Shown here: in pieces, positions 46,658 to 60,891 of the stretch
How the letters are laid out: every line of letters starts with the position of its first letter
How positions within the stretch are numbered: the first letter of the stretch is position 1
Assembly (NCBI GenBank): GCA_030693235.1
Contig: JAUYBE010000006.1
Span: forward strand, 2,758 to 66,757
Direction: 5' to 3'
Origin: a bacterium
GTDB taxonomy: Bacteria > Patescibacteriota > Minisyncoccia > UBA6257 > UBA9933
DNA: 64,000 nt
Translations under genes and position numbers: made by a program
Notes under the pieces: generated by a model
What the model saw: only the letters and a program-made list of their open reading frames with translations
Databases searched by the model: none
What the model was told of the DNA's origin: nothing

Positions 46658-46960
46658 ATGTTAATCAACAAAAAAACTTTGGAACATTTGGTCGAGTTAA
46701 GCCGGATTGAATTGGATAAAAAAAGCGAAGAAAAGCTGTTGGGAGACCTTCAGAAAATTTTGGGGCACTTTGAGGAATTGGAGGGAGTGGATACGGAAAA
46801 TGTTGAGCCAATAGCGGGTGGAACGGAATTAAAAAATGTTTTTAGAGAAGATGAGTCAAATGTCAGTTGTCAGATGTCAAATGTTAAAATAGTGGAGGCG
46901 TTCCCGGAGAAAGAAAACGGTTTTTTAAAAGTGCCGCCCATATTTCAGAATAACGAATAA
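46658..46960 (+). CDS. gatC: Asp/Glu-tRNA amidotransferase subunit C
   Basis: 'LEHLVELSRIELDKKSEEKLLGDLQKILGHFEEL'. The track ORF starts at 46634. Confidence 0.8.
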   Translation: MLINKKTLEHLVELSRIELDKKSEEKLLGDLQKILGHFEELEGVDTENVEPIAGGTELKNVFREDESNVSCQMSNVKIVEAFPEKENGFLKVPPIFQNNE

Positions 46961-47003: not shown

Positions 47004-48488
47004 ATGGATATTCGCGATTTAACAATTAAAAAATTTCACGAAGGATTGGTAAATAAACAATTTTCGGTTTTTGAGATTACGAAAGCGTTTTTTAATTATA
47101 TTAAAGAAAAAGATTCACGGATAAACGCTTATTTGCGTCTAACCGAAGATTCAGCTTTGTCGCGGGCGAATAAAGTTGATATTGAATTGGCCGAGGGGAA
47201 AAACTTGGGAATTTTAGCAGGTATCCCTTTGGCTATTAAAGACAATATTTTAATTGAAGGCGAGTTGGCGACAGCTGGCTCGAAAATTTTAGAAAATTAT
47301 CGGGCGAGCTATGACGCGACCGTAATTAAAAAACTTAAAAAATCCGGCGCCGTGTTTTTAGGCAAAACTAATATGGACGAATTTGCCATGGGTTCTTCGA
47401 CGGAAAATTCGGCTTTTAAAATTACCAAAAATCCTCATGATTTGGAACGGGTGCCGGGCGGTTCTTCCGGCGGTTCAGCCGCGGCTGTTGCTTCTGATAT
47501 GGCTGTGGCGGCATTGGGTTCGGATACAGGTGGCTCTATCAGACAGCCGGCGGGTTTTTGCGGCGTGGTTGGTTTAAAGCCGACTTACGGCGCGGTTTCC
47601 AGAAACGGTTTAATCGCAATGGCTTCTTCTTTGGATCAAATCGGTCCGATAACAAAAACAGTTGAAGACGCGGGAATATTATTTGAGGCGATTAAAGGCA
47701 AAGATGAATTGGACGCGACCAGCGCTACGAATTCAGAATTCAGAATTCAGAATTCAGAATTACAGGATATTCGGAAATTGAAAATCGGGTTGCCGAAGGA
47801 GTATTTTGCCGGTGGATTAATCAAGGAAGTGGAAGAGGCGATTGAAGAAGCGATTAAAAATTTAAAATCATTAAAAATAGAATTTAAAGAAATCAGTTTG
47901 CCGCACACAAAATACGCTTTATCCTGTTATTATATTATTATGCCGGCGGAAGTAAGCGCGAATCTGGCGAGGTTTGATGGAGTGCGCTATGCGCGCCTAA
48001 GCGATGCAAAACTACGAATACACGCGAATGCCGCGAATAAATCAGAATTATTAAATATTTATCTTAAAACGAGGGGTGAGGGATTCGGCGATGAAGCAAA
48101 ACGAAGAATTATTTTAGGAACTTTTGTTTTGTCGTCGGGATATTACGACGCTTATTATTCTAAAGCTCAAAAAGTCAGGCGATTAATTAAAGAAGATTTT
48201 GACAAAGCGTTTGAAGAAGTCGATGTAATTTTAACGCCGGTTTCGCCGACCCCGGCCTTCAAAATCGGCGAAAAAACTGATGACCCGCTTCAAATGTATT
48301 TGTCAGATATTTTTACCATTCCGGTTAATTTGGCAGGGCTCCCGGCTCTTTCGATTCCAGTTAACCCAAAACCTAAAACCCAAAACCTAAAACCTAATTT
48401 ACCCGTTGGTTTCCAGCTTATCGGCAAACCGTTTCGCGAAGTTGATATTTTAGGAATCGGGCAGTATTATGAGAAAATCATCGAATAA
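47004..48488 (+). CDS. gatA: Asp/Glu-tRNA amidotransferase subunit A (amidase signature)
   Basis: The AS signature is 'GGSSGGSAAAVAS'. It contains in-frame tandem-repeat insertions at 47729-47763 and 48368-48395. Confidence 0.9.
   Translation: MDIRDLTIKKFHEGLVNKQFSVFEITKAFFNYIKEKDSRINAYLRLTEDSALSRANKVDIELAEGKNLGILAGIPLAIKDNILIEGELATAGSKILENYRASYDATVIKKLKKSGAVFLGKTNMDEFAMGSSTENSAFKITKNPHDLERVPGGSSGGSAAAVASDMAVAALGSDTGGSIRQPAGFCGVVGLKPTYGAVSRNGLIAMASSLDQIGPITKTVEDAGILFEAIKGKDELDATSATNSEFRIQNSELQDIRKLKIGLPKEYFAGGLIKEVEEAIEEAIKNLKSLKIEFKEISLPHTKYALSCYYIIMPAEVSANLARFDGVRYARLSDAKLRIHANAANKSELLNIYLKTRGEGFGDEAKRRIILGTFVLSSGYYDAYYSKAQKVRRLIKEDFDKAFEEVDVILTPVSPTPAFKIGEKTDDPLQMYLSDIFTIPVNLAGLPALSIPVNPKPKTQNLKPNLPVGFQLIGKPFREVDILGIGQYYEKIIE
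47729..47763 (+). repeat. (GAATTCA)5 tandem heptamer, in-frame within gatA
   Basis: Four perfect units and one variant unit encode 'NSEFRIQNSEL'. Each unit contains an EcoRI site. Confidence 0.8.
48368..48395 (+). repeat. (AAAACCT)4 tandem heptamer in gatA
   Basis: Units aaaacct/aaaaccc/aaaacct/aaaacct encode 'PKPKTQNLKP'. Confidence 0.8.
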
Positions 48489-48511
48489 CGAATTAGCGCG
48501 AATATACAAAT

Positions 48512-49009
48512 ATGATTGATGATTTTATAAATTTCTTTACAGAAAACTTGCTGGTTTTTCAGATTGTTTCGCTTTTTGTGTCCACGATTCTTTTGAGTTT
48601 TATTATTTATTTTATCGCCAAACTTAATATTATCGGCGAGAAAATAGAAAATTTTATCGATGTGCTTGGAGCTAAAGATATTTCAAAGCGCCGGACGTTG
48701 AAAGCTTGGAAGCAGATTCAGAGGCGGTTAAAAACGGGCGAACTTAATCAATTAAAACTGGCCATTTTGGAAGCGGACAAAGTTTTGTACGAGGTTTTAA
48801 AAATGATTGACTATCAGGCCAAAAATTTCGATGAAATTTTGGAAAAAATTACCGAAATACAGCTTTCCAATATCAAAGAGATCCGGCATATTCATAAACT
48901 TCGGCATCGGATTGCCAGCGAGCCGGATTTTCAAATCAGCGTCAATGAAGCGGAAATGGCGATTGAGATTTACAAAAGAGCTTTTCAGGAGTTAAAACTT
49001 ATTGAATGA
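48512..49009 (+). CDS. Hypothetical membrane-anchored protein
   Basis: An N-terminal TM helix is followed by a helical region. Confidence 0.3.
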   Translation: MIDDFINFFTENLLVFQIVSLFVSTILLSFIIYFIAKLNIIGEKIENFIDVLGAKDISKRRTLKAWKQIQRRLKTGELNQLKLAILEADKVLYEVLKMIDYQAKNFDEILEKITEIQLSNIKEIRHIHKLRHRIASEPDFQISVNEAEMAIEIYKRAFQELKLIE

Positions 49010-50201
49010 TTTTTGCAAATCTTCTTTTTCCAGATTGAATAATCATTCCGTTTTTTATTGGAATGTTTTTTCGCCAATCTTCTTGAATTTCGTTATTAAT
49101 TTTCACGCCTTTTTGTTCAATCAATCTTTTGGCTTCGGCTTTTGATGAAGCGAGTTTGGTTTTGGTTAATAAATCCAAGATATTAATATTTTTCGCGGCA
49201 ATTTTAATTAAAGGAATTTCCGACGGCAGTTTTTTCTCTTTGAAAATTTGATTAAATTCTTTTTCAGCTTTTTGGGCCGCGATTTTTCCGTGATAGAGCG
49301 CGACGATTTCATGAGCAAGTCTGGCTTTGACATCGCGGGGGTTTAATTTGCTTCGTTCCATATCCGTTTTTATTTTTTGTATTTCCTTTTTGGATTTGTC
49401 GGTGCAAAGCAAAAAATATTTTGCGATAAGATTATCCGGTAACCGCATTATTTTTTCAAACATTTTGTTTGGCGTTTCATTGACGGCAATATAATTTCCA
49501 GCGCTTTTGCTCATTTTTTTTATGCCATCTAGTCCTTCAAGAAGCGAGGTGGTTAAAATGTCTTGTTCCGGCATTTCATAAAATCTTTGGACCTTCCTCC
49601 CCATCAGAAGATTAAATAATTGATCTGTTCCGCCAATTTCAACATCAGCCTTGACCATTACTGAGTCATATCCTTGAAGTAAAGGATAAAGCGTTTCAAG
49701 GAGCGTTATGTCTTGATTTTTTTGTAAGCGTTTTTGAAAATCTGTTCTGTGCAAGATTTGCTGAATACTGCCTGCTCTGGCAAGCTTAAAAATTATTTTA
49801 GCGTTATCCTTTGCGAACCATTCACTATTGTAAATAACTTCAGTTTTGTCTAAATTGATTATTTTGTCCGCCTGCTTGAGATACCCTTTCATATTCTTTT
49901 TTATCTCCTCTGCAGTTAATGGCTTTCTTGTTTCTTTGCGTTCGCTGGGATCGCCGATTTGCGCCGTAAAGTCGCCGATTATTAATATAATTTGATGGCC
50001 AAGTTCCTGAAATTGTTTTAATTTTCTAAGCGGTACGGAATGTCCAAGATGTATGTCCGGCGCTGTTGGATCAATGCCAAATTTGACCCGCAAATTTCTT
50101 CCAGATTTTAATTGCTTTTCGAGGTGATTTTTTACGATTATTTCTTTCACGCCGTGCGTCAAAATTTTTTCGATTTTTTGAGAGTCAGTGTTGATTTTCA
50201 T
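48999..50201 (-). CDS. tyrS: Tyrosyl-tRNA synthetase
   Basis: 'PDIHLGHSVPL' (HIGH) and 'KMSKSAGN' (KMSKS), with a C-terminal S4 domain. Confidence 0.9.
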   Translation of the reverse strand: MKINTDSQKIEKILTHGVKEIIVKNHLEKQLKSGRNLRVKFGIDPTAPDIHLGHSVPLRKLKQFQELGHQIILIIGDFTAQIGDPSERKETRKPLTAEEIKKNMKGYLKQADKIINLDKTEVIYNSEWFAKDNAKIIFKLARAGSIQQILHRTDFQKRLQKNQDITLLETLYPLLQGYDSVMVKADVEIGGTDQLFNLLMGRKVQRFYEMPEQDILTTSLLEGLDGIKKMSKSAGNYIAVNETPNKMFEKIMRLPDNLIAKYFLLCTDKSKKEIQKIKTDMERSKLNPRDVKARLAHEIVALYHGKIAAQKAEKEFNQIFKEKKLPSEIPLIKIAAKNINILDLLTKTKLASSKAEAKRLIEQKGVKINNEIQEDWRKNIPIKNGMIIQSGKRRFAKIIQ

Positions 50202-50218
50202 AATTTTTAGAGTTTAAA

Positions 50219-50295
50219 TGGCGCGGGTGACCGGATTTGAACCGGCGATCCCTGCCGTGACAGGGCAGTGCTTTAGACCGCTAAGCTACACCCGC
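50219..50295 (-). tRNA. tRNA-Asp (GUC), with CCA encoded
   Basis: The reverse complement is 'GCGGGTGTAGCTTAGCGGTCTAAAGCACTGCCCTGTCACGGCAGGGATCGCCGGTTCAAATCCGGTCACCCGCGCCA'. It folds as a cloverleaf with the anticodon loop CTGTCAC. Confidence 0.85.
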
Positions 50296-50328
50296 ATTAC
50301 GCGCTAAAATTATAGATTAAAATCGTTT

Positions 50329-51735
50329 TTATTTCAACTTTTTAACTATTTTTTTGATTTTTTCACCTCTTTCTTTATAATCTTTGAACATATCAAAGCT
50401 GGCTGAGGCGGGGGAGAAGATGACGGTAATTGGTAATTGGTAATTAGTAATTAGAGATTTGGCGGTTTTATAAGAAAGATTAATAGCTTTATTTAAATTT
50501 TTAACTTTTCTAATTACTATTTGCCGATTACTATTTACTGAAATTGCTTTAGCGATTTTTTGTTTGTTTTCGCCGAATAAAATCACCATTTTTGTATTGG
50601 AATTTTTTAACGCTTTGGCGAGAGGGGAATAATTTAAATTTTTGTCTTTGCCGCCGGCGATTAAGATTTTCGGTTCGCTAAAGGCGTGGATTGCCGCGGC
50701 CGCGGTTTGGGGATTGGTGGAAGCGGAGTCGTTGTAGAATTTAATTAATGTTTTGGAAGTCCGACCTCCCAAATATTGACGATTAATTTTAGGAGGTCGG
50801 ACTTCCCGAAATTGGTTAACGTTGATACTACGAACAAATTCTAATCGGTGCTCCAAACCGCGGAAATTTTTAATGGCCTTAATTATCTTTTCTTTCGGAC
50901 AACCGAGTGATAGAGCGACGGTCGCCGCCATTATTGCGTTTTTCAAATTATGCGTTCCGGGGATCTTTATAACTGATTTTATTTTATTCTCTAATTCGCG
51001 CGAATTAGAGAACGATAAATCTATGGGAAATTTTTTGCCGGGACTTTTTTGGGCGGTTAACTTTGAATATTTATCATCCGAAAAATAAAATATTTTATCG
51101 TTTTTTTTCTGCCATTTGGCGATATTGGCTTTGGCGTTGAAGTATTCGCGGAAATTTTTGTGAGCGTCTAAATGGTCTGGGAAAATACCCAAGAAAACGG
51201 CAATGTCGGGTGATTGGGTTAAGTCCTGAAGCTGAAAACTGGAAAGCTCTAAAATAACGACAGAATTATTTTTTAATTTTGGCAAAATTTCAATAGCTGG
51301 TTTGCCGATGTTGCCGGCTAAATAAGTATTTTTATCGCAAGCTTTTAAAATTTTATAAAGCAGAGTGGAAGTTGTCCCTTTGCCCTTAGTGCCTGTTATG
51401 CCGATGACTTGTGGTGAGCCGCGCCGAACCGTTTTTCTTATCTCTTCAAAAAACAATTGAGTGGCGCTGGAAAATTTAACTCCTTTTTTAACAGCTTTTT
51501 GGATTTCCGGCGAATTATAAGGCACGCCCGGCGAGCGAAAAACAAGGTCGAATTGTTCCAGATTTTTCAAATAATTTTTATCGAGTTTTTTGTCTAAAAC
51601 AGAAACATCCGATTTCTTAAACCGCGGGGACTTTTTGAGAAATTTCAATAGAGATTTTCCTTCAAGGCCAAAGCCCAGAATGGCGATTTTTTTTGAAGTT
51701 AAATTATTGGTCATAAATAAAAAATACCCCGCCAT
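50329..51735 (-). CDS. murD: UDP-N-acetylmuramoylalanine--D-glutamate ligase
   Basis: The N-terminus is 'KIAILGFGLEGKSLLKFL' and the P-loop is 'GITGTKGKGTT'. It contains three small in-frame insert elements: 50425-50456, 50755-50806 and 50988-51011. Confidence 0.85.
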   Translation of the reverse strand: MAGYFLFMTNNLTSKKIAILGFGLEGKSLLKFLKKSPRFKKSDVSVLDKKLDKNYLKNLEQFDLVFRSPGVPYNSPEIQKAVKKGVKFSSATQLFFEEIRKTVRRGSPQVIGITGTKGKGTTSTLLYKILKACDKNTYLAGNIGKPAIEILPKLKNNSVVILELSSFQLQDLTQSPDIAVFLGIFPDHLDAHKNFREYFNAKANIAKWQKKNDKIFYFSDDKYSKLTAQKSPGKKFPIDLSFSNSRELENKIKSVIKIPGTHNLKNAIMAATVALSLGCPKEKIIKAIKNFRGLEHRLEFVRSINVNQFREVRPPKINRQYLGGRTSKTLIKFYNDSASTNPQTAAAAIHAFSEPKILIAGGKDKNLNYSPLAKALKNSNTKMVILFGENKQKIAKAISVNSNRQIVIRKVKNLNKAINLSYKTAKSLITNYQLPITVIFSPASASFDMFKDYKERGEKIKKIVKKLK

Positions 51736-51764
51736 TGCTTAAAAAGCAAATGACGGGGAAAAAC

Positions 51765-52553
51765 CTATGCCAATGTTGTGATAAAAGCGGCGTTCCGATG
51801 TTTTACCCCATTTTTATCATCGTGGTAATAACACCAGTATTTTCCGCTACAACAGACACATTCTCCTATCTCATTAATTTTTTTATAGCCCTTTTCCATA
51901 AATAATTCGCAGATAAGGCCGATTAAATTGAAATTAATGGAATGGTCTGCGGTATGAATGAATCGATCGTTATCGTCCGGCCTCATAGCTTTAATAGCAG
52001 GATAGACGGTTTTTAAAAAATAATCATAACCGTCGTTTTCATATTTTAGACAATTGCCGCATGTTGAAGGAAGAAAGATTATCTGCGTGGTTTCTTTTCT
52101 TCCGCCAGCATTTTCCCATAACGAAAAAAACCTTTCAACTATGTCTTGCGTTATGGATTTCCATCCTCCATGAAGAAGGCCAGAAATATTCGTCTTTTCA
52201 TTCCGAAAAGCGATCGCCGGACATCCGCCGGGGAAAAATATGGCTGCTCCGGCGCCACGGTAAATAACACCGTCGCAGAAGCGTTGTGTTGTTCCAGTCT
52301 TGAAATTATTTGGGAAATAGGTTATCCTGTCGCCATGTTTTTCTGCTCTCATTATTATAAGCTTATCGGAAACGGCAGAATAAAAACCGGTAATTTCTAA
52401 TACCTTTTTAGCCAACTCAAAAGCTTTTTTACTTGAGCCGTTAGGATAGAAGTTTCCGGAGTTTTTATGGGTCATACCAACTGTGGCATTCCCATCAATT
52501 TGAAAAGAACAAAATTTTTCTTCCAGAACAGATTCTTCTTTTATCGTTACCAC
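51765..52553 (-). CDS. YfiH/PgeF (DUF152) family purine-nucleoside phosphorylase / laccase-domain protein
   Basis: 'FFPGGCPAIAF' and 'GLLHGGWKS' match the YfiH 'ADCxP' and 'HAGWRG' regions. Confidence 0.55.
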   Translation of the reverse strand: MVTIKEESVLEEKFCSFQIDGNATVGMTHKNSGNFYPNGSSKKAFELAKKVLEITGFYSAVSDKLIIMRAEKHGDRITYFPNNFKTGTTQRFCDGVIYRGAGAAIFFPGGCPAIAFRNEKTNISGLLHGGWKSITQDIVERFFSLWENAGGRKETTQIIFLPSTCGNCLKYENDGYDYFLKTVYPAIKAMRPDDNDRFIHTADHSINFNLIGLICELFMEKGYKKINEIGECVCCSGKYWCYYHDDKNGVKHRNAAFITTLA

Positions 52554-52712
52554 GGTGTCCCTCCTTTTTGAATTTATTTTAAAGACGCTATATTATTTTT
52601 ATTCGAATTTTTGACTTATGTCAAGTTGTTTGTTATTATTTTATCGTGGGGTGGACCAATGATATTCTATTTTCTATTTCGCCGAGATTTCCTGATAAAA
52701 TCGGGATATCTC

Positions 52713-52782
52713 GGCGGGGTGGACCAATGGTAGGTCGGGAGGCTCATAATCTCCAGAAGTGGGTTCAATTCCCACCCCCGCA
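52713..52782 (+). tRNA. tRNA with a CAU anticodon (Met elongator or Ile2-lysidine type); short D-arm, CCA not encoded
   Basis: 'GGCGGGGTGGACCAATGGTAGGTCGGGAGGCTCATAATCTCCAGAAGTGGGTTCAATTCCCACCCCCGCA'. The anticodon loop is CTCATAA and the T-loop is TTCAATT. Confidence 0.65.
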
Positions 52783-52791
52783 ACATTCTTC

Positions 52792-52866
52792 GTCGGCGTA
52801 GCTCAGTGGCAGAGCGAGGGACTCATAAACCCTAGGTCACAGGTTCGATCCCTGTCGCCGGCACCA
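52792..52866 (+). tRNA. tRNA-Met (CAU), possibly the initiator (three G-C pairs in the anticodon stem), with CCA encoded
   Basis: 'GTCGGCGTAGCTCAGTGGCAGAGCGAGGGACTCATAAACCCTAGGTCACAGGTTCGATCCCTGTCGCCGGCACCA'. Confidence 0.8.
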
Positions 52867-52956
52867 TTAAAATTAAAAGTTTAAAATTCAAAAATCAAAA
52901 TGACAAATCAAAATTTTAAAATGATTTAAATTAAAAATTTTGAATCTTACATTTTT

Positions 52957-54005
52957 ATGATTAAAGAAATTAGTAGAAATTTTGGGGAAGAAATAAAAAA
53001 AGTCGAAGATTTAAAAAGTTTAGAACAACTGCGTATTAAATATCTCGGCCGGAAAGGCGAGTTAACGCGAATTTTGCGCGGGCTCAAGGATTTATCGGTG
53101 GAAGAGCGCCGAAAAATCGGCCCTCAAGCCCAAAAACTCAAAAAAGAACTGGAAGAATTATTTAGAGAAAAAACAGATGAACTAAAACCTAAAAACTATA
53201 ACCTAAAACCTAAAATTGACATCACCAAGCCGGGCAAAAAGATTCCCGTAGGCCATCTTCATCTTTTATCGAAAACGGAAGAGGAAATTCGCCAGATCTT
53301 TCTTTCGATGAATTTTTCGGCGGTTGAAGGGCCGGAAATTGAGGACGAGTATCATAATTTTGACGCTTTAAACATTCCACCGAATCATCCGGCAAGAGAT
53401 ATGTGGGATACATTTTGGCTTCGCCAAAATGAAATCAAAAATCAAAAATCAAAAATAACCTAAAACCTAAAACCCAAAACCTAAAACCTTTATTATTGCG
53501 CACTCACACAAGCCCTATGCAAATCCGCTATATGGAAACTCACAATCCGCCGTTTCAGATTATTGTGCCGGGACGAGTTTTTCGTTACGAAGCCACAGAC
53601 GCCTCTCATGAAACCAATTTTTATCAAGTTGAGGGGTTGATGGTTGGCAAAGATGTTTCTTTGGCGAATTTTAAGTTTGTTATTGAGGAATTTTTTAAGA
53701 AATTTTTTGCTTCGACGGGTTCGGCGCGGGGCGGCAAAGAGATAGAATTTCGCTATCGGCCGAGTTATTTTCCTTTTGTCGAGCCGGGCGTTGAAGTCGA
53801 TATTAAATTTGAAAATAAATGGCTGGAAATTATGGGCGCTGGTATGGTCCATCACAATGTTTTTGAAGCGGTGAAATATAATCCTTATGAATGGCAAGGT
53901 TTTGCTTTTGGAATGAGTTTAGAAAGATTGACGATGATCAAATACAATATTCCCGACATCAGACTGTTCTACTCCGGCGACTTGAGATTTATAAATCAAT
54001 TCTAA
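52957..54005 (+). CDS. pheS: Phenylalanyl-tRNA synthetase alpha subunit, split into two ORFs (52957-53463 and 53496-54005) by a frameshift within a heptamer tandem-repeat tract
   Basis: ORF1 ends '...HPARDMWDTFWLRQNEIKNQKSKIT*'. ORF2 (TTG start) continues 'LLRTHTSPMQIRYM...FRYEATDASHETNFYQVEGL...' with class II motifs 2 and 3. Frame 3 is open from 53433, so a 1-nt insertion in the A5 runs at 53433-53460 would fuse the two. Confidence 0.8.
53432..53488 (+). repeat. (AAATCAA)3-(CTAAAAC)4 compound tandem repeat at the pheS break
   Basis: Seen directly in the sequence. The same (AAAACCT)n family occurs at 53184-53211, 60593-60620, 60724-60744 and 48368-48395. A related (AAAACTC)4 is at 56051-56078, and (GGTAATT)4 is at 50425-50456. 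Confidence 0.8.
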
Positions 54006-55873
54006 TGTTTAAAAAGGAATTATTTTTAGAGGAAGCCGTTTTGGACGACCTTTCGCGGGGTTTTGATTCTTTGGAGCAGCCTATTTCTCGGAAGGCTTTT
54101 AAATTGCTTTTTATTGCCGCTGTTATCGTTATAACCGTAGTTATAGCCAGATTATTTTTTTTGGGTTGGTGGCAGAATGATTTTTATAAAAAACGGGCGT
54201 TGGCCAATGCCGGAGAGATGACCGTTATTCGGACTCAGCGGGGGATTATTTTTGACCGTTTTAACAAGCCCTTGGTCAAAAACCTTCCGGCTTTTCATTT
54301 AAATCTTAAACTCGTCGAGTTTTTCAAAAATAGCGAAGAGCGGCCTCAGACGATAAAAGCTCTTCAGAGTATTCTTAATTTGCCGCCTGATTATATAGAA
54401 GATTTGTTTAAAAACGTTAACTTGGAGAGGCAAAATATTTTAACCGTCGCCAGGCAATTAACAGTTGACCAAATAATTAAAATTAAAAATTTAAATTTGC
54501 CGGCGGTTCAAGTAGAAGACGATTTTGAAAGGCAATATCCCGAAGTGGAAGTTTTTTCTCATCTCCTTGGTTATACCGGGCCGGTCAGCAAAGCCGATTT
54601 GGGGAAAAAATCGTCGCTTTCTTTGAATGATATTGTCGGCAAAAACGGTTTGGAGCTTTATTATGATACGGAATTGAGAGGGGAAGACGGAGAAACGATT
54701 AATTATCGGAATGCCAAAGGAGAAATTATAGACAATAAATTATTTAAAAAGCCGGAGCCGGGCCATGAATTTCATATTACGATTGACGCCGAATTTCAAT
54801 CTTTTTTTTATAATCGATTGAAGCAAGGATTGAATTATTTGGGAAGCCGGGCCGGCGTGGGAATCGCTTTAAATCCCCAAAACGGAGAAGTTTTGGCCTT
54901 GGTCAGTTTGCCGAGTTTTGATAATAATAAAATCAAATCGGAAGATTTAGTTGATTCTTCCAAGCCGCTTTTTAACCGCGCCGTTTCCGGATTTTACGCG
55001 CCGGGTTCAACGATTAAACCTTTAGTGGCTTTTGGGGCTTTGAAAGAGGGAATTATCGCGCCGGAAAAAGAAATCCTTTCAATCGGCTATATAGAAATTC
55101 CCAATCCTTATCATCCGGATCAGCCTTCCCGTTTTGTGGATTGGAAGCCGCACGGCTGGGTAAATTTATATTCGGCTCTGGCTCGTTCTTCAAATGTTTA
55201 TTTTTATGAAATCGGCGGGGGATTTGGCGATCAAAAAGGATTGGGAATCGAGAAATTGAAAGATTATTGGCAAAAATTCGGCTTGGGAGATCTTACCGGT
55301 ATTGATTTGCCGGGCGAAGCCAAAGGATTTCTTCCTGATCCGGAAACCAAAGAAAAAAAACAAGGAGAAATTTGGCGGATAGGCGACACTTACAATGTTT
55401 CTATCGGCCAGGGCGATCTTTTAGTGACTCCGCTTCAGCTTATTAATTTTATTGCCGCTATCGCCAATGGCGGGAAAATTTATCAGCCGTTTATTGTTCA
55501 AAAGATTGTTTCGGAAGACGGAAAAGTCATTAAAGAAACAAATCCAAAAATTATAAAAGATTATTCTTTAGATATTGAAATAATCAAGAAAGTCCAGAAA
55601 GGAATGATTGATGGCGTTGAAAAATCTTACGGCACGTCTCATCTTTTGGCTGGTTTGCCGGTATCGGTTGCCGGTAAAACCGGCACTTCGCAGGTTGAAA
55701 ACAAAACTAAAACAAACGCTTTTTTCGTCGGATACAGTCCAAAAGAAAATCCTCAAATCGCGATTCTGGTTTTAGTCGAAGACGCCCGCGAAGGCAGCAT
55801 TAACACAGTCCCGATAGCCAAAGACGCGCTTAATTGGTATTATACAAATAGAATAAAGAATAATGAATTATGA
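54006..55873 (+). CDS. Penicillin-binding protein 2 / FtsI-type transpeptidase (the track ORF starts at 53891 inside pheS)
   Basis: An N-terminal TM anchor is followed by 'PGSTIKPLVAFGAL' (SxxK), 'ARSSNVYF' (SxN) and 'AGKTGTSQ' (KTG). Confidence 0.85.
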
Positions 55874-56874
55874 ATTCTGAATTACGACAAGACCTTGTTT
55901 CCGGCGATTGGGTTGTAATCGTGCCGAAAAGGGTTAAGCGATTAGAACAATTTATTAAAAAAGAAAAACGAATTAAGTCGCCGATTAAGGGGTGTCCTTT
56001 TGAAAATCCGCAAAAAAGCGGGAACGAACAGCCGACTCTAATATACCCTCAAAACTCAAAACTCAAAACTCAAAACTTTTCTGGTTGGCAGGTACAGGTG
56101 ATTCCTAATAAATATCCGGCTCTTATTCGTAAAAATGTTTGTCCGGCAGTTCTTAAAAACGGCCCTTATTCAGTTATTGAAGGCATTGGCCATCACGATT
56201 TAGTTATAACCAGAGATCACCATAAAAATTTTCCGCTGTTGGACAAAAAATCGGCCAATTTGGTTTTTCAGGCTTTTCAAGAGCGTTATCGGATTCTTAT
56301 TAAAGATTCTTGTTCGGCTTATGTTTCTATTTTTCATAATTGGGGGCCGAAGGCCGGCGCTTCAATTTATCACCCGCATTATCAGATAATTTCTATTCCG
56401 GTTGTTCCGCCGGATATCGGCCATTCGCTTTCCGGTTCGGCTGATTATTTCAAAAAAAATAAAAAATGCGTTCATTGCGTAATGATTGAATGGGAAAAGA
56501 GAATAAAAAAGAGAATCGTTTATGAAAATAAAGGCGCTATTGTTTTTACTCCTTTTGTTTCCCGCGAACCGTTTGAATTGAGAATCTTTCCCAAAAAACA
56601 CCTGCCTTGTTTTGAAGACACTTCAAAACAAGATTTGGAATTGGTTGTTGAAGCTTTACAAAAAGCTTTGACGAAGATTGAAATCAAACTCAATGATCCG
56701 GATTATAATTTTTTCATTCATACGGCGCCGATTTTAAACAAGAAAAATTACAAGCATTATCACTGGCATATTGAAATTCAGCCGAAAATCAGCATCTCGG
56801 CCGGATTTGAACTGGGAACAGGAATTGAAATTACCGTCGTTGACCCGGATGAAGCGGCGAGGATATTGAGGTAA
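55870..56874 (+). CDS. Galactose-1-phosphate uridylyltransferase-like (GalT / HIT-fold nucleotidyltransferase)
   Basis: 'GCPFENP' (Zn site), 'SIYHPHYQII' (HxHxQ active-site motif) and a C-terminal 'YHWHIEIQP'. It contains an (AAAACTC)4 insertion at 56051-56078. Confidence 0.65.
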   Translation: MNSELRQDLVSGDWVVIVPKRVKRLEQFIKKEKRIKSPIKGCPFENPQKSGNEQPTLIYPQNSKLKTQNFSGWQVQVIPNKYPALIRKNVCPAVLKNGPYSVIEGIGHHDLVITRDHHKNFPLLDKKSANLVFQAFQERYRILIKDSCSAYVSIFHNWGPKAGASIYHPHYQIISIPVVPPDIGHSLSGSADYFKKNKKCVHCVMIEWEKRIKKRIVYENKGAIVFTPFVSREPFELRIFPKKHLPCFEDTSKQDLELVVEALQKALTKIEIKLNDPDYNFFIHTAPILNKKNYKHYHWHIEIQPKISISAGFELGTGIEITVVDPDEAARILR

Positions 56875-56891
56875 AGCGTGAATTATAAATT

Positions 56892-57338
56892 ATGGAAAAA
56901 GAAATTTTAACAATTTTAATTGCCGCCTCGCCAGTTTCGGAATTAAGAGGAGCGATTCCGGCAGCTATTTTCTTCTGGGATTTTCCGGCGTTAAAAGCGT
57001 TTTTATTAAGCGTCTTCGGAAATTTTCTGCCGGTTATACCACTTCTTCTTTTTTTAAAATATCTTACCGGCTGGTTGTCTCACCGGGTTTATTTTTTAAA
57101 TAGATTTTTCAGTTGGCTCTTTGAAAGAACCAGAAAACAGCACAATCATCATTTTGAGGTCTGGAAAGAATTAGCGCTGATAATATTTGTTGCCATTCCT
57201 CTGCCTTTGACCGGCGCTTGGGGCGGAACAGTGGCGGCTTTTGTTTTTGGTATTCCTCTTCACCGCGCGATTTTAGACATTGGTTTGGGAATTTTAATCT
57301 CCGGTTTAATTGTTTTGTCCATTACATATGTTTTATAA
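56892..57338 (+). CDS. Small membrane protein (COG2426-like)
   Basis: It has four predicted TM helices. Confidence 0.4.
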   Translation: MEKEILTILIAASPVSELRGAIPAAIFFWDFPALKAFLLSVFGNFLPVIPLLLFLKYLTGWLSHRVYFLNRFFSWLFERTRKQHNHHFEVWKELALIIFVAIPLPLTGAWGGTVAAFVFGIPLHRAILDIGLGILISGLIVLSITYVL

Positions 57339-60015
57339 TCAAACTTTTTCCGAGGTTTTGGAATTTTTAAAATCAAGCGAAAGGGGATTGACCCAGGAAG
57401 AAGCGGAAAAGCGCTTGAAGGATTGCGGCCTTAATGAACTGCCGGAAGCCAAACCTGACAGTCTTTTTATTATTTTTATCCGTCAGTTTCAAAGCCCTTT
57501 GATTTATATTTTATTTGGCGCGGCTTTGATTGTTTTTTATTTAGGCGAAATGATTGACGGTTCGATTATTTTGGCGGTTCTTTTATTTAACGCTTTTGTT
57601 GGTATGCTTCAGGAAGGGAAAGCGCAAAACACTTTATCGGCTTTAAAAAAATTCGTTGAAACCAAAGCTTTGATTTTGCGCGACGGAAAAGAAATTATTA
57701 TTTCCGATTCCCGAATAGCGCCCGGTGATATTATTCTTCTTCAGGAAGGAGAAAAGGCGCCGGCTGACGCCAGAGTAATCGTCTCTAATAATCTTAAAAT
57801 TGATCAGGCTGCCTTGACCGGTGAATCAGAGCCGGTTTTTAAAACAGTGGAACCTATTCATCAAAAAGACATGCCATTTATTGACCAGAAAAATATGGTT
57901 TTTAAAGGAACTTATATTGTTAGTGGCAATGGTCAGGCGGTAGCGGTTAACACCGGCGTCAATACGATAATTGGCAAGATCGGCCAAAAAATCGCTTTAA
58001 TTGACACGGAAATACCGCTTAAAAAAGACATTCGCCAGCTCTCGCGGCTTATCATTTTTACGGTCGCTTTAATCAGCGTTATTTTGTTTGCCGTCGGCAT
58101 TTTTTTCGGAAAATCTTTGATAGAAATGTTCAAGGTTGTGGTCGCTCTTTCGGTTTCTATAATTCCCGAAGGATTGCCGGTGGTTATTACCTTGGTTTTG
58201 GCCACCGGTGTTTGGCGGATGGCAAAACGCAATGCTTTGGTCAAACGGCTTCAGGCGGTTGAGGCCTTGGGACAAACAAAAATCATCGCTCTTGATAAAA
58301 CCGGAACAATCACGAAAAATGAATTGGCGATTCAAAAAGTTTTTATCAATGGTAAATTTTTTGAGATTGGCGGAGTCGGTTATGAGCCGAAAGGAGACAT
58401 CTATTATATTCCCGATGCGAAACAACGAATAGATGCGAATGCCGCGAATGAAAACAAAGAAAAACAATTAATCTCCCCGCCTGATTTTGAAGAACTGATT
58501 CTTGCCGGGAAAATAGCGGCTTTTTGTTCCAACGCCTATGTTTTTTATTCGGAAGAAGACAAGAATTATAAAATCAGCGGCGACCCGACCGAAGCCGCGA
58601 TTTTGGTTTTCAGTCAAAAAATCGGTTTTCAGAAAGAAATCATTGAAAAACAGCATCCGCTTATTGAAGAAATCCCCTTTGATTATAAAAATAAATATCG
58701 TTTTACGCTGCGTCAATCGGATGCTAATAAATTCGCGTCTATCATCGGCGCGCCGGAGTCGGTGCTTTCTTTATGCAAACTCGCAAAAAAAGAAAAAGAA
58801 AATTTAGAAAATATTTTTTATAAAATGTCAGCCGAAGGACTGCGGGTTTTGGCTTTTGCTTATAAAGAGGCCGGCCCTAAAATAAAAATTGAACCCGAGA
58901 AAACGAAATTTGTTTTCGCTGGATTTTATGGAATGAGGGACGGTTTAAGAGAAGAAGCCAAAGAAGCGATTAAACAGGCGCAGGAAGCGGGCATCAGAAT
59001 AATAATGATTACCGGCGACCATAAAATTACCGCCCAAGCAATCGCCAAAGAAGCGGGAATTTTCAAAGAAGGCGATGAGATTTTAACCGGTAAAGATTTA
59101 GAAGAAATTTCCGAAGAAGAACTTATTTTAAAACTGCCGAAAGTTTCGGTTTTCGCCAGAGTAACGCCTGAACATAAATTAAGAATTATTGAGGCCTATC
59201 GGAAAAGAAAAGAAATTATCGCGATGACCGGCGACGGCGTCAATGACGCGCCTTCTTTGGTGGCGGCTGATTTGGGAGTGGCAATGGGTAAAATCGGCAC
59301 CGAGGTTGCCAAAGAAGCGTCTGACATTATTCTTTTGGATGACAATTTTGGCACAATTATTTCGGCTATTGAAGAGGGAAGGAGTATTTATAAGACGATT
59401 AAAAAGGTGATTGTATATCTTTTTTCCACAAGCTTGGGCGAGGTTTTAACTATTAGCATCGCTCTTTTTTCCGGCTATCCTTTGCCGCTTTTAGCAGGTC
59501 AGATTATTTGGTTAAATTTTATCACTGATGGTTTTTTGGTTGTGGCTTTAGGAATGGAGCCGAAAGAAAAAGGATTGCTTCATCTGAAATTCAAAAAACC
59601 GGCAAGATATTTAGTTGATTCATTAATGGTTCAGCGAATGGCAGTGATGGCTTTGCCGATGTCCATCGGCAGCTTTTTTATTTTTCAGAAATACTTGGAT
59701 TTTGATTTAACTAAAGCTTTGACGATGTGTTTGACTACGTTGGCGATTTTTCAATGGTTTAACGCTTTTAATTGCCGTTCGGAAAACAAGTCAATTTTTC
59801 GGATGAACTTTTTCTCCAATAAGTGGCTGCTCGCCGCGGCGTTTATTGTTGTTTTTCTTCAACTAATGGCGGTTTATAATCCGATAATGCAAAAAATTTT
59901 GCGCACCACTGCTTTGGAATTTTCCGACTGGCTGATTGCCATCGCTATTGCTTTTTCTATTATAATAATTGAAGAATTTAGAAAAGTAGTTTACAGGAAG
60001 TTTGCGAAAAGTTAA
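57310..60015 (+). CDS. P-type cation-transporting ATPase (type II, Ca2+/Mg2+-like)
   Basis: 'DKTGTITKN', 'MITGDH' and 'TGDGVNDAPSL', with 10 TM segments. Confidence 0.9.
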   Translation: MFCPLHMFYNQTFSEVLEFLKSSERGLTQEEAEKRLKDCGLNELPEAKPDSLFIIFIRQFQSPLIYILFGAALIVFYLGEMIDGSIILAVLLFNAFVGMLQEGKAQNTLSALKKFVETKALILRDGKEIIISDSRIAPGDIILLQEGEKAPADARVIVSNNLKIDQAALTGESEPVFKTVEPIHQKDMPFIDQKNMVFKGTYIVSGNGQAVAVNTGVNTIIGKIGQKIALIDTEIPLKKDIRQLSRLIIFTVALISVILFAVGIFFGKSLIEMFKVVVALSVSIIPEGLPVVITLVLATGVWRMAKRNALVKRLQAVEALGQTKIIALDKTGTITKNELAIQKVFINGKFFEIGGVGYEPKGDIYYIPDAKQRIDANAANENKEKQLISPPDFEELILAGKIAAFCSNAYVFYSEEDKNYKISGDPTEAAILVFSQKIGFQKEIIEKQHPLIEEIPFDYKNKYRFTLRQSDANKFASIIGAPESVLSLCKLAKKEKENLENIFYKMSAEGLRVLAFAYKEAGPKIKIEPEKTKFVFAGFYGMRDGLREEAKEAIKQAQEAGIRIIMITGDHKITAQAIAKEAGIFKEGDEILTGKDLEEISEEELILKLPKVSVFARVTPEHKLRIIEAYRKRKEIIAMTGDGVNDAPSLVAADLGVAMGKIGTEVAKEASDIILLDDNFGTIISAIEEGRSIYKTIKKVIVYLFSTSLGEVLTISIALFSGYPLPLLAGQIIWLNFITDGFLVVALGMEPKEKGLLHLKFKKPARYLVDSLMVQRMAVMALPMSIGSFFIFQKYLDFDLTKALTMCLTTLAIFQWFNAFNCRSENKSIFRMNFFSNKWLLAAAFIVVFLQLMAVYNPIMQKILRTTALEFSDWLIAIAIAFSIIIIEEFRKVVYRKFAKS

Positions 60016-60024
60016 AATGATTTT

Positions 60025-60891
60025 ATGAGCGCTAAAAAACTTTTAATTTTCAATTGGAAAATGGCGCCGGACTCGCTAAAAGAAGCGATTTCGCTTTTTG
60101 AGCGAACGCGGACTTGCGCGGACAAAACGCGGAATCACGCAGAAACAATTATTGCTCCGCCGTTTGTTTATCTATCAAATTTGTCAAAAGTCAAAAGTTC
60201 TCTCTTCGGGAGATCTCCCGTAGGGAGACAAAAGTCAAAAGTTGCGCTGGCTGCCCAGAATGTTTTCTGGGAAGACAGCGTCGCTTATACTGGTGAAATT
60301 TCAGCGAGTATGCTAAAAGATTTAGGCGTGGAATATGCGATTATCGGACATTCAGAAAGGCGGAAATATTTATCCGCCGAAGGCGGATTCGCCTCTGGCG
60401 GAAACGAAACAGATAAGATGATTAACAAAAAAATTCTGGCGTCATTGAAAGCGGGATTGAAAGTAATTCTCTGTGTCGGTGAACCGACACAACGCGGACA
60501 AACGCGGACTGAACGCGGACTGACGCGGAATATAAAATGGGCGAAAAATTATGTTAAAAATCAATTAGAAAAAGATTTAAAAAATTTAATCCAAAACCTA
60601 AAACCTAAAACCCAAAACCTAATTATTGCCTACGAGCCCCTCTGGTCCATCGGCACCGGCCATTCGGACGCGCCGCAAGACGCGGCAGAAATGATAAATT
60701 TTATTAAAAATATTCTAAAAGCTAAAACCTATAACCTAAAACCTAAGGTTTTGTATGGCGGCTCCGTTAATTCCAAAAACATCGCCAAATTTCTAAAGCA
60801 TCCCGAAATCGACGGCGCGCTTGTCGGTCACGCGAGTTTGAAACCCAAAGAAGTTAAAGCTATTATTGAAATAGCGTCGAAAATGTGCTAA
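60025..60891 (+). CDS. tpiA: Triosephosphate isomerase carrying four in-frame repeat insertions
   Basis: 'IIGHSERR' and 'AYEPLWSIGTGHSDAP' (TIM signature). It has extra segments at 60183-60243, 60490-60536, 60593-60620 and 60724-60744. Confidence 0.85.
   Translation: MSAKKLLIFNWKMAPDSLKEAISLFERTRTCADKTRNHAETIIAPPFVYLSNLSKVKSSLFGRSPVGRQKSKVALAAQNVFWEDSVAYTGEISASMLKDLGVEYAIIGHSERRKYLSAEGGFASGGNETDKMINKKILASLKAGLKVILCVGEPTQRGQTRTERGLTRNIKWAKNYVKNQLEKDLKNLIQNLKPKTQNLIIAYEPLWSIGTGHSDAPQDAAEMINFIKNILKAKTYNLKPKVLYGGSVNSKNIAKFLKHPEIDGALVGHASLKPKEVKAIIEIASKMC

What the first reader, a model, noticed from the sequence alone, without database searches (positions are those of the whole stretch)
47729..60744. 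Family of in-frame heptanucleotide tandem repeats, (AAAACCT)n and relatives, inserted into conserved housekeeping genes
Arrays of 3-5 copies of AAAACCT occur at seven places. Six are inside coding sequence: gatA 48368-48395, pheS 53184-53211 and 53460-53488, tpiA 60593-60620 and 60724-60744, and the galT-like gene 56051-56078 as AAAACTC. They encode KPK/TQN-rich peptides such as 'NLKPKTQNLKP'.

The units carry point variants (ccc for cct) exactly where a perfect array would create an in-frame TAA, implying selection to keep the reading frame open. Sister arrays are (GAATTCA)5 in gatA and (GGTAATT)4 in murD. I saw no arrays of this family in the first 47 kb (the defence island).

The sequence resembles telomere-type CCCTAAA repeats. 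The mechanism that seeds identical heptamer arrays into unrelated essential genes is unexplained.
Basis: seen in the sequence. Interest (0 to 1): 0.65.

Follow-up and report, generated by a model that had tools for sequence, protein, structure and literature searches.

The report
Translated 7-base repeats inside essential genes
Short tandem repeats of a 7-base unit sit inside, and are translated as part of, essential housekeeping enzymes of this ultra-small (Patescibacteria/CPR) bacterium and many of its relatives, at the same few protein loops; I found no paper describing this for the group, and why the repeat length is 7 is unexplained.

Summary
In 46.5-61 kb there are 11 tandem arrays of period 7 (3.4-5 units, about 30 nt), against 0.02 expected from shuffles and none of period 5, 6 or 8-11.

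Five arrays use AAAACCT (gatA, pheS twice, tpiA twice). The others use GAATTCA, AATTACC, AAATCAA, CTCAAAA and TGTCAGA.

The arrays are read in the gene's frame. All 6 in-frame TAA positions are mutated, against 1 of 18 out-of-frame ones.

One correction: the (AAATCAA) array in pheS is one unit short of the in-frame orthologue, so pheS is frame-broken in this assembly.

The genome is a Paceibacteria-type Patescibacterium, and the phenomenon is clade-wide. Tandem-heptamer-encoded peptides occur in 107 of 120 TIM orthologues and 82 of 120 PheS orthologues (602 and 411 windows, against 1 each in shuffles). They fall at the same few loops. Units differ between lineages and are shared between unrelated sites within a genome.

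The telomere resemblance is superficial.

Best explanation: these are STRR-like heptanucleotide microsatellites, kept uniform by slippage, locked in place by frame constraint, and occasionally copied between loci. What produces the period-7 bias and the genome-specific units is still unexplained.

The parts
46861..46884 (+). (TGTCAGA)3.4 array inside gatC, encoding NVSCQMSNVK
47729..47761 (+). Perfect (GAATTCA)4.7 array inside gatA, encoding NSEFRIQNSEL. No net length change against Aquifex GatA 3h0l. The relative L128 has ACTGCAG/ACTACAG units at the same site.
48363..48397 (+). (AAAACCT)5.0 array inside gatA, encoding NPKPKTQNLKP. It is an exact 7-aa insertion against 3h0l. The in-frame TAA is changed to CAA.
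50425..50454 (-). Array in murD, AATTACC x4.3 on the coding strand, encoding LITNYQLPIT. It is a 7-aa insertion against MurD 3lk7. The same unit sits at the same site in relative L123.
53182..53215 (+). pheS site 1 (end of the N-terminal arm): (AAAACCT)4.9 encoding LKPKNYNLKPK, with the in-frame TAA changed to TAT. At the same site L123 has AATTACC, L129 AACCTAA, L146 AAAATTT and L160 AACTCAA.
53432..53456 (+). pheS site 2a: perfect (AAATCAA)3.6 array. It is one unit shorter than the in-frame orthologous array (4.7 units) in L166, and this is where pheS changes frame.
53457..53489 (+). pheS site 2b: (AAAACCT)4.7 array, open only in the frame of the C-terminal half (NLKPKTQNLKP). It differs at 1 of 33 nt from the gatA array.
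55850..55883 (+). Degenerate heptamer array (GAATAAA/GAATTAT/GAATTCT) spanning the PBP2 stop and the galT-like start. The 33 nt from 55851 are identical in L123, L127 and L130.
56048..56077 (+). Perfect (CTCAAAA)4.3 array in the galT/HIT-like gene, encoding QNSKLKTQN. L123 has (ACCAACG)4.3, also 30 nt, at the same site.
60593..60622 (+). tpiA site before strand beta-6 (AYEP): (AAAACCT)4.3 array encoding QNLKPKTQNL.
60715..60746 (+). tpiA site before strand beta-7 (LYGGS): (AAAACCT)4.6 array encoding LKAKTYNLKPK. L123 has CTAAATT units, and the Liptonbacteria locus L124 has AAAACCT units, at the same site.
41630..41651 (.). Intergenic (ATTGACA)3.1 array.
38155..38192 (.). Degenerate intergenic period-7 array (AAAAGCY-like, 74% matches).

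Best explanation
**What it is (shown).** These are genuine, translated heptanucleotide microsatellites. Each is a tandem array of 3.4-5 units (about 30 nt) lying in permissive loops and linkers of core genes: gatC, gatA, murD, pheS, a galT/HIT-like gene and tpiA. The genome is a Paceibacteria-type Patescibacterium (CPR). Three units make 21 nt, or 7 codons, so an array is read in all three phases of its unit and yields peptides such as KPKTQNL. The trait is clade-wide. Orthologues in many related metagenome genomes carry heptamer-encoded peptides at the same few positions. The unit differs between lineages, and within a genome the same unit recurs at unrelated sites.

**How it most likely works (inferred).**
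- Arrays arise, and are kept uniform, by slipped-strand or unequal exchange within the array.
- In essential genes only changes of three units (21 nt) are viable. Arrays are therefore 'frame-locked' and persist instead of being whittled away.
- Selection removes in-frame stop codons and out-of-frame copy numbers.
- Array sequence is occasionally copied from one locus to another by ectopic template switching or gene conversion. This would give each genome its own dominant units.

**Consequence seen here.** In this assembly the (AAATCAA) array in pheS is one unit short of the in-frame state, which breaks the gene. That is either a real slippage allele or an assembly error.

**What it is not, and what stays open.** The arrays are not telomere-related. 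Why the period is 7 (with a minor 10-11-nt class), rather than a multiple of 3, is not explained by this model.
For: **The excess is real and specific to period 7**
- 11 arrays against 0.02 expected, and no arrays of period 5, 6 or 8-11.
- across 419 kb of relatives, 37 period-7 arrays against 4 (period 6), 2 (period 8) and 1 (periods 9-12).

**The arrays are translated**
- In-frame TAA is changed at 6 of 6 positions, out-of-frame TAA at 1 of 18, p=5e-5.
- Units that cannot form stop codons (GAATTCA, CTCAAAA, AAATCAA) form 100% perfect arrays, while AAAACCT arrays are 85-92% matched.

**Location in loops and linkers**
- Insertions of exactly 7 aa against solved GatA, MurD and PheS.
- In TIM the arrays lie in the two helix-to-strand connections before beta-6 and beta-7.

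**The phenomenon is clade-wide**
- 107 of 120 TIM and 82 of 120 PheS orthologues have windows that a tandem heptamer could encode: 602 and 411 windows, against 1 each in shuffles. The hits fall at recurrent sites.
- DNA of syntenic relatives shows the same sites with different units.

**In-situ evolution and three-unit steps**
- The pheS site-1 array in L129 is a mixture of ACTAAAA and CCTAAAA units.
- The tpiA array in L128 has 7.3 units where others have 4.3.

**Short-term stability**
- L122 and L123 are 99.83% identical, and none of their indels lies in an array.

**Sharing and copying within a genome**
- 10.3% of within-genome array pairs share a unit, against 1.7% between genomes; permutation p=0.005.
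- A 40-nt cassette is 35/40 identical between gatA (48002-48041) and the P-type ATPase (58413-58452). Both copies are insertions and both are in the same frame.

**Slippage cost**
- The window has (AAATCAA)3.6 where L166 has 4.7 units in frame, with an identical flank.
Against: - Slippage alone does not predict a period of 7. Repeats of period 3n should be the best tolerated in coding sequence, yet they are absent.
- Frame-locking would equally protect periods 4, 5 and 8, which are not enriched.
- Complete replacement of the unit at a fixed site, with the array length preserved, is hard to reach through viable three-unit steps. Example: galT, CTCAAAA against ACCAACG, both 30 nt, in genomes whose PBP2 is 90% identical.
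- No direct observation of copy-number polymorphism was obtained.
- The mechanism of inter-locus copying is unknown. No target-site duplications or terminal repeats were seen at array or cassette edges.
- Translation is inferred from sequence only.
Confidence: 0.55

Rival explanations
1. A dedicated copy-and-paste or templated-synthesis process creates the arrays. This could be a miniature mobile element, a reverse-transcriptase- or nuclease-linked templated insertion, or a molecular drive through DNA uptake plus recombination. It would install and overwrite roughly 30-40-nt periodic cassettes (period 7, and 10-11) at permissive sites. Slippage would be secondary.
For: - The period bias is also present in intergenic arrays of relatives, for example L123 2726-2767 with 6 units.
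- Dominant units are genome-specific and occur at unrelated sites (p=0.005).
- The gatA and pheS-2 arrays differ at 1 of 33 nt.
- A 40-nt cassette is 88% identical in gatA and the ATPase. It is new in this lineage: L123 lacks it in the ATPase, and L128 and L129 have a different array at the gatA site.
- Units are swapped completely at fixed sites with array length preserved.
- The window and the distant L166 share about 47 identical nt around the pheS array at 71.5% overall identity, while closer relatives lack that array.
- Heptamer repeats in other phyla have likewise been suspected of horizontal spread with no mechanism identified (PMC4679880).
Against: - No candidate enzyme was identified in the window.
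- No target-site duplications, terminal inverted repeats or conserved flanks were found.
- Mixed-unit arrays suggest gradual in-situ change.
- Some arrays are conserved vertically: murD in the window and L123, and pheS site 1 in the window, L129 and P0121.
- The identity among the AAAACCT arrays could be forced by the need to remove the one in-frame TAA.
Confidence: 0.28
2. The arrays are kept because they do something useful. Possibilities are flexible surface linkers in the proteins, or nucleic-acid signals such as DNA-uptake or self-recognition sequences, translational pause sites, or sites for a DNA-binding protein that reads a 21-bp (two helical turns) spacing.
For: - Periodicity persists at the same sites across orthologues only 50-60% identical.
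- Array lengths cluster near 30-33 nt. A preference for four units was also reported for GGGAATC repeats in Xanthomonas and Nostoc (PMC4692102).
- Identical 33-nt and roughly 47-nt stretches are conserved between diverged genomes.
Against: - The unit sequence is not conserved at a given site, and several unrelated units coexist in one genome.
- The closest PheS relative (P0121, L167) does without the site-2 array, and some relatives have none in 20 kb, so the arrays are dispensable.
- They occur in unrelated enzymes with no common need.
- No structure-forming potential is evident in these A-rich units.
Confidence: 0.1
3. The arrays are assembly or sequencing artefacts, or the affected genes are decaying pseudogenes.
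For: pheS is frame-broken within an array. I could not inspect reads. No intact PheS of this genome is in the protein database.
Against: - A Logan assembly of SRR13727537 reproduces both tpiA arrays exactly.
- In the relatives L123, L127 and L130, assembled from different samples, the arrays they share are identical.
- All the other arrays keep long ORFs open, with targeted removal of stops.
- Flanking proteins are 84-90% identical to relatives and full length.
Confidence: 0.03
4. The arrays are telomere-derived or telomerase-like repeats.
For: AAAACCT differs at one position from a rotation of CCCTAAA, by inspection of the two sequences.
Against: - The arrays are internal, short (about 30 nt), translated, and use many unrelated units.
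- (AAAACCT)3 also occurs in cyanobacteria, Bacteroidota and other phyla.
Confidence: 0.01

Closest known systems
STRR (short tandemly repeated repetitive) heptanucleotide sequences of heterocystous cyanobacteria, and the general excess of heptameric simple sequence repeats in some bacterial genomes. My knowledge: Mazel 1990; Mrazek 2007. Both are cited in PMC4692102.
   Same: 7-nt unit, short tandem arrays, many dispersed loci per genome, several unit families per genome, mechanism unknown. (AAAACCT)3 itself occurs in many cyanobacteria.
   Different: - STRR and the related repeats are reported as mainly intergenic and under-represented in coding regions.
- Here 10 of 12 arrays lie in or overlap coding sequence of essential genes and are translated.
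- The host is a Patescibacterium with a small genome.
- The sites are conserved across orthologues.
GGGAATC/GGGGAYT heptamer repeats of Xanthomonas and Nostoc (PMC4692102).
   Same: Period 7, genome-wide dispersal, and a preference for about four units.
   Different: Those are G-rich and form quadruplexes. They lie near gene ends on particular strands and are under-represented in ORFs. The units here are A/T-rich and sit mid-gene.
TAACTGA direct repeats of Beggiatoaceae, cyanobacteria and Bacteroidetes (PMC4679880).
   Same: A heptamer repeated 2-6 or more times, a patchy phylogenetic spread with no known mechanism, and occasional in-ORF copies translated as a 7-aa repeat (LSVISYQ).
   Different: There it is one dominant unit, mostly just upstream of start codons. 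In-ORF copies are at protein termini or in hypothetical proteins, not in the loops of core enzymes.
Phase-variable contingency loci (simple sequence repeats in Haemophilus, Neisseria and others).
   Same: A repeat of non-3n period inside a coding sequence, so that slippage by one unit shifts the frame, as seen in pheS here.
   Different: - Contingency repeats sit in surface or restriction-modification genes, near the 5' end, and vary between close strains.
- These arrays sit mid-gene in housekeeping enzymes.
- In the relatives L122 and L123, 99.83% identical, no array differs.
Low-complexity insertions in Plasmodium falciparum housekeeping proteins (my knowledge).
   Same: Slippage-prone repetitive DNA tolerated as extra surface loops in conserved enzymes of an A/T-rich genome.
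   Different: Plasmodium tracts are mostly codon-periodic (Asn/Lys runs). Here the period is 7 nt, which forces a 7-aa peptide period and stop-codon repair.
DNA uptake sequences (USS/DUS), and small dispersed repeats or REP-like miniature elements (my knowledge; REPINs in PMC3116915, listed).
   Same: Genome-specific short motifs found at many loci, including tolerant parts of coding regions, and thought to spread by a molecular drive or a dedicated enzyme.
   Different: USS and DUS are single motifs, not tandem arrays. REPs are palindromic and intergenic. No uptake or transposase link was tested here.

Membership tests
Heptanucleotide SSR / STRR-type tandem repeats | Unit length of 7 nt in head-to-tail tandem copies | tested here: met
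   TRF and my own scan: 12 arrays of period 7 with 3.1-5.0 copies.
Heptanucleotide SSR / STRR-type tandem repeats | Statistical excess of period 7 over other periods, at many dispersed loci | tested here: met
   11 arrays against 0.02 expected, none of the other periods. The same holds in relatives.
Heptanucleotide SSR / STRR-type tandem repeats | Predominantly intergenic location, as reported for the cyanobacterial, Xanthomonas and Beggiatoa repeats | tested here: not met
   9 arrays lie inside ORFs, 1 spans a gene junction and 2 are intergenic.
Heptanucleotide SSR / STRR-type tandem repeats | Host is a (heterocystous) cyanobacterium (STRR in the strict sense) | tested here: not met
   Closest proteins are from Patescibacteria, Wolfebacteria and Liptonbacteria MAGs.
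Phase-variable contingency locus | Copy number varies between closely related strains | tested here: not met
   In the relatives L122 and L123 (99.83% identical) none of the indels is in an array, and the arrays shared by L123, L127 and L130 are identical. Only indirect evidence exists for this genome: pheS is one unit short of L166.
Phase-variable contingency locus | Located in surface, virulence or restriction-modification genes, where on/off switching is adaptive | tested here: not met
   The hosts are gatA, gatC, murD, pheS, tpiA and a galT-like gene. The restriction-modification and glycosyltransferase genes of the window carry none.
Telomeric repeats | One conserved unit in long arrays at the ends of a linear replicon | tested here: not met
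   The arrays are internal, about 30 nt long, use at least eight different units and are translated.
Translated repeat insertion in a protein loop | Extra residues relative to orthologues at a surface loop, with the reading frame kept | tested here: met
   +7 aa in GatA, MurD and PheS site 2. The TIM helix-to-strand connections are from the alignment and the AF2 model, mean pLDDT 80.8. Exceptions: two arrays show no net length change, and pheS is frame-broken.
Miniature mobile element (MITE/REP/SDR-like) | Near-identical copies at unrelated loci, with defined ends or target duplications, and an associated enzyme | tested here: inconclusive
   Near-identical copies exist: a 40-nt cassette at 35/40, and 33-nt arrays differing at 1 nt. 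No terminal repeats or target duplications were seen. No enzyme was identified.
DNA uptake sequence | Biased uptake of DNA that carries the motif | not testable with these tools
   Needs uptake assays. Only the genome-specific enrichment was seen.

The most novel reading that the evidence does not exclude
Paceibacteria (CPR) would possess an active, period-specific process that writes and overwrites short periodic cassettes directly inside the coding sequence of essential genes, at a small set of permissive loops. The cassettes are 7-nt units, with a second 10-11-nt class, each about 30-40 nt long. Each genome would propagate its own preferred units between loci. That would be a new kind of intragenic 'mobile microsatellite'. 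It might share its mechanism with the unexplained heptamer repeats of cyanobacteria, Beggiatoaceae and Bacteroidota.
Probability: 0.28. Interest if true: 0.85.

Novelty: new variant of a known kind. Interest (0 to 1): 0.68.

Why it matters
- **An old puzzle.** Heptanucleotide repeats have been noted in bacterial genomes for decades (STRRs, GGGAATC, TAACTGA) without a mechanism. They have been described as mainly intergenic.
- **A natural experiment.** Here the same kind of repeat sits in the reading frames of essential enzymes across a large clade of ultra-small bacteria. Every array must stay in frame and free of stops, and orthologous sites can be compared across hundreds of genomes. Turnover, unit replacement and spread within a genome can therefore be measured from sequence alone.
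- **Practical consequences.**
  - Frameshifted 'pseudogenes' in CPR genomes may be one-unit slippage alleles or assembly errors, as in pheS here.
  - Alignments and phylogenies of CPR marker proteins contain repeat-derived segments that are not homologous residue by residue.
  - CPR proteomes carry recurrent 7-aa-periodic peptides, such as KFYILNS, ELRIKNY and SSVVGRR, that could be mistaken for motifs.

Tried and rejected
- **Telomere-like origin.** Rejected, because the units are diverse.
- **Assembly artefact.** Rejected for tpiA: the Logan contig is identical. The arrays shared by the relatives L123, L127 and L130, assembled from different samples, are also identical.
- **Exact scan for (AAAACCT)3 in GTDB genomes.** It did not return this genome. 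It is also biased towards untranslated arrays, because perfect AAAACCT arrays longer than three units carry a stop in every frame. It shows only that the unit is not specific to this lineage.
- **Exact-protein look-ups.** Look-ups for GatA and for both pheS fragments found nothing. A search with a conceptually repaired PheS found no intact copy from this genome; the best hit was 80% identical. The pheS frame break therefore could not be checked against another assembly.
- **Phase variation.** The two near-identical relatives L122 and L123 differ only at homopolymers, not at arrays.
- **Transposon footprint.** No target duplications or terminal repeats were seen at array or cassette edges.
- **Programmed -1 frameshifting on the A-rich (CAAAAAT)n tract of pheS.** Considered, but the orthologue with one more unit is simply in frame, so no recoding signal is needed.
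- **Literature.** Five searches and one targeted read found nothing on heptamer repeats in CPR/Patescibacteria.

Full report
**1. What is in the sequence**

Tandem Repeats Finder and an independent scan both show a striking excess of period-7 tandem arrays in the last quarter of the window.
- Requiring at least 3 copies, the window holds 12 period-7 arrays, against 0-1 for every other period from 4 to 12.
- In 46.5-61 kb there are 11, against 0.02 expected from 100 dinucleotide-preserving shuffles, and none of period 5, 6 or 8-11.
- The AAAACCT dimer pattern with up to 2 mismatches occurs 19 times against 1.78 expected.

The arrays are:

| Coordinates | Gene | Unit and copies |
|---|---|---|
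| 46861-46884 | gatC | TGTCAGA x3.4 |
| 47729-47761 | gatA | GAATTCA x4.7, perfect |
| 48363-48397 | gatA | AAAACCT x5 |
| 50425-50454 | murD (minus strand) | AATTACC x4.3 on the coding strand |
| 53182-53215 | pheS | AAAACCT x4.9 |
| 53432-53456 | pheS | AAATCAA x3.6, perfect |
| 53457-53489 | pheS | AAAACCT x4.7 |
| 55850-55883 | PBP2 stop / galT start | degenerate |
| 56048-56077 | galT/HIT-like | CTCAAAA x4.3, perfect |
| 60593-60622 | tpiA | AAAACCT x4.3 |
| 60715-60746 | tpiA | AAAACCT x4.6 |
| 41630-41651 | intergenic | ATTGACA x3.1 |

Gene identities come from Pfam.

**2. The arrays are translated**

Three heptamers make 21 nt, or 7 codons, so a tandem AAAACCT tract places a TAA in each frame once every three units.
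- In the five AAAACCT arrays, all 6 in-frame TAA positions are altered (four to CAA, two to TAT). Only 1 of 18 out-of-frame TAA positions is altered (Fisher p=5e-5).
- Units that cannot create a stop (GAATTCA, CTCAAAA, AAATCAA) form 100% perfect arrays.

**3. Relation to orthologues**

- Against solved structures, the gatA AAAACCT array is an exact 7-aa insertion.
- The murD array is a 7-aa insertion.
- pheS site 2 is 7 aa longer than the already long loop of Thermus PheS.
- The gatA GAATTCA array and pheS site 1 occupy variable segments with no net length change.
- In TIM the two arrays lie in the helix-to-strand connections just before beta-6 (AYEP) and beta-7 (LYGGS). By standard TIM-barrel topology this is the face opposite the catalytic loops (alignment; AF2 model with mean pLDDT 80.8).

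**4. pheS is not in frame**

- Pfam splits PheS into two ORFs in different frames.
- The switch must occur inside the (AAATCAA) array.
- The AAAACCT array that follows is open, with its TAA repaired, only in the downstream frame.
- Wolfebacteria orthologues read FWLRQNEIKNQKSKIKN....
- At the DNA level, locus L166 has the identical flank TTTTGGCTTCGCCAAAATG followed by 4.7 perfect units in frame. The window has 3.6 units.
- The assembly is therefore exactly one unit short: either a slippage allele or an assembly error.
- No intact PheS from this genome is in the protein collection, so this remains open.

**5. Where the window comes from, and how general the pattern is**

- The TIM protein is recorded from an NCBI 'MAG: bacterium' contig of 228 kb. 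Its homologues are from Patescibacteria, Wolfebacteria, Liptonbacteria and Colwellbacteria.
- A TIM alignment showed that other genomes carry different heptamer-derived peptides at the same two loops: KFYILNS from AAATTCT, TNYHLLI from ACTAATT, and KPKTYNL from AAAACCT.
- I tested whether a 10-aa window can be encoded by a tandem heptamer with at most 2 amino-acid mismatches.

| Protein set | Positive | Windows (real vs shuffled) |
|---|---|---|
| TIM homologues | 107 of 120 | 602 vs 1 |
| PheS homologues | 82 of 120 | 411 vs 1 |

- The PheS hits cluster at three sites; TIM hits in the 40 proteins listed recur at about five positions.
- In the window itself, none of the 42 ORFs before 43.7 kb scores, while 10 segments score in 46.9-60.9 kb.
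- The empty part encodes restriction-modification enzymes, a kinase, glycosyltransferases and an ATP-dependent ligase.

**6. DNA of relatives**

Syntenic loci from groundwater metagenomes were retrieved.
- The period-7 excess recurs in the nearer relatives: L123 has 10 arrays in 21 kb, L128 has 7 and L129 has 5. Many more distant loci have none. In total there are 37 period-7 arrays, against 4, 2 and 1 for periods 6, 8 and 9-12, in 419 kb.
- Arrays occupy the same protein positions with different units:

| Site | Units found |
|---|---|
| pheS site 1 | window CTAAAAC; L123 AATTACC; L129 AACCTAA; L146 AAAATTT; L160 AACTCAA |
| pheS site 2 | window AAATCAA + AACCTAA; L129 ACAAACG; L146 AAAGTTC; L123 GGTCGTC |
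| galT | window CTCAAAA; L123 ACCAACG (both 30 nt) |
| murD | window and L123 both GGTAATT |

- L123 is close to the window: PBP2 and the ATPase are 90% identical and GalT 84%. TIM is only 63% identical, with differences visible at the repeat-bearing segments.
- L122 and L123 are 99.83% identical, and their indels are all single-base homopolymer differences. Arrays are therefore stable at strain level.

**7. Signs of intragenomic spread**

- Array pairs within a genome share the same unit in 10.3% of cases, against 1.7% between genomes and 0.3% at random (permutation p=0.005).
- The gatA and pheS-2 arrays differ at 1 of 33 nt.
- A 40-nt cassette with an internal 10-nt period is 35/40 identical between gatA (48002-48041) and the P-type ATPase (58413-58452). 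Both copies are insertions in the same frame, encoding DAKLRIHANAANK and DAKQRIDANAANE. L123 lacks it in the ATPase.
- A second repeat class, ACGCGGAC plus 2-3 nt (period 10-11), occurs twice in tpiA and in relatives.
- Against this, mixed-unit arrays (L129 pheS site 1) and a 7.3-unit array (L128 tpiA, 4.3 plus 3) fit gradual in-situ evolution by slippage in three-unit steps.

**8. Interpretation**

- Shown: these are real, translated heptanucleotide microsatellites at permissive loops, and the trait is clade-wide.
- Inferred: the arrays are homogenised by slippage. They are frame-locked in essential genes, because only changes of three units are viable. They are purged of stops by selection, and they are occasionally copied between loci.
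- Not explained: why the period is 7 rather than 3n, and how a unit is fully replaced at a fixed site.
- Those gaps keep open a dedicated writing or mobility mechanism (probability about 0.28).
- The telomere idea is rejected.

**9. Comparison with what is known**

- An excess of heptamer repeats is documented in cyanobacteria (STRR), Xanthomonas and Nostoc (GGGAATC; PMC4692102), and in Beggiatoaceae, cyanobacteria and Bacteroidetes (TAACTGA; PMC4679880).
- In those cases the repeats are mostly intergenic and under-represented in ORFs, and the mechanism is unknown.
- (AAAACCT)3 itself is found in many phyla.
- I found no paper on heptamer repeats in CPR/Patescibacteria.
- I classify this as a new variant of a known kind. 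It meets the defining period, tandem and dispersal features. It fails the 'intergenic' and host features of STRRs, and it does not behave like a contingency locus.

Noticed in passing
window 52957-54005 (break inside 53432-53461): pheS is split into two ORFs in different frames. The (AAATCAA) array has 3.6 units where the orthologue in L166 has 4.7 in frame, so one added unit would restore a full-length PheS.
   Followed up: yes
window 48002-48041 and 58413-58452: A 40-nt cassette with CGAAT recurring every 10 nt is 35/40 identical in gatA and the P-type ATPase. Both copies are in-frame insertions (DAKLRIHANAANK and DAKQRIDANAANE). L123 lacks it in the ATPase.
   Followed up: partly
window 60104-60143 and 60486-60529 (tpiA); also L123 ~452-480 and ~911-945, L125 ~2467: A second family of translated tandem repeats with a period of 10-11 nt (ACGCGGAC plus 2-3 nt) encodes RTRTCADKTRN and TQRGQTRTERGLTRN. 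It occupies sites where relatives have heptamer arrays.
   Followed up: partly
window 60178-60250, 60372-60402 and about 53709-53741: Small GC-rich insertions in coding sequence: tctccc-gta-gggaga flanked by GTCAAAA repeats in tpiA; CCGCC-gaa-GGCGG and CGCC-tct-GGCG encoding SAEGGFASGG in tpiA (both visibly hairpin-like); and ASTGSARGGKE in pheS. They are absent from most orthologues.
   Followed up: no
window 53412-53456 vs L166 ~10465-10510: About 47 nt, covering the flank and the AAATCAA array, are identical between the window and a Wolfebacteria MAG whose pheS is only 71.5% identical overall. Closer relatives (L167, L123) lack this array. This could be an ancient retained array or a transferred patch.
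   Followed up: partly
window 41630-41651: (ATTGACA)3 in a divergent intergenic region gives three tandem copies of the sigma-70 -35 consensus TTGACA.
   Followed up: no
window 47729-47761 and 164-1234: The (GAATTCA)4.7 array is a run of four tandem EcoRI sites (GAATTC). The window also encodes an EcoRI-type adenine methyltransferase (PF13651). No link was tested.
   Followed up: no
window 55850-55883: The heptamer-periodic junction carrying the PBP2 stop and the overlapping galT-like start (ATGA) is conserved: the 33 nt from 55851 are identical in L123, L127 and L130.
   Followed up: partly
window 52713-52866 and 52866-52950: Two adjacent tRNA-Met(CAT) genes are followed by an A-rich, loosely heptamer-periodic spacer upstream of pheS. 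L123 has a (GGTAATT)6 array in the corresponding spacer.
   Followed up: no
window 1-46600 and 62245-63990: The repeat-free part of the window is accessory: an EcoRI-like methylase, type I restriction-modification R and S subunits, a Ser/Thr kinase, glycosyltransferases and an ATP-dependent DNA ligase. A GmrSD-type restriction enzyme follows the housekeeping block.
   Followed up: partly
L122 vs L123: L122 fragments several genes (PBP2, ATPase, murD). Every difference from L123 in the shared 19 kb is a 1-nt homopolymer indel, typical of long-read consensus error rather than biology.
   Followed up: yes
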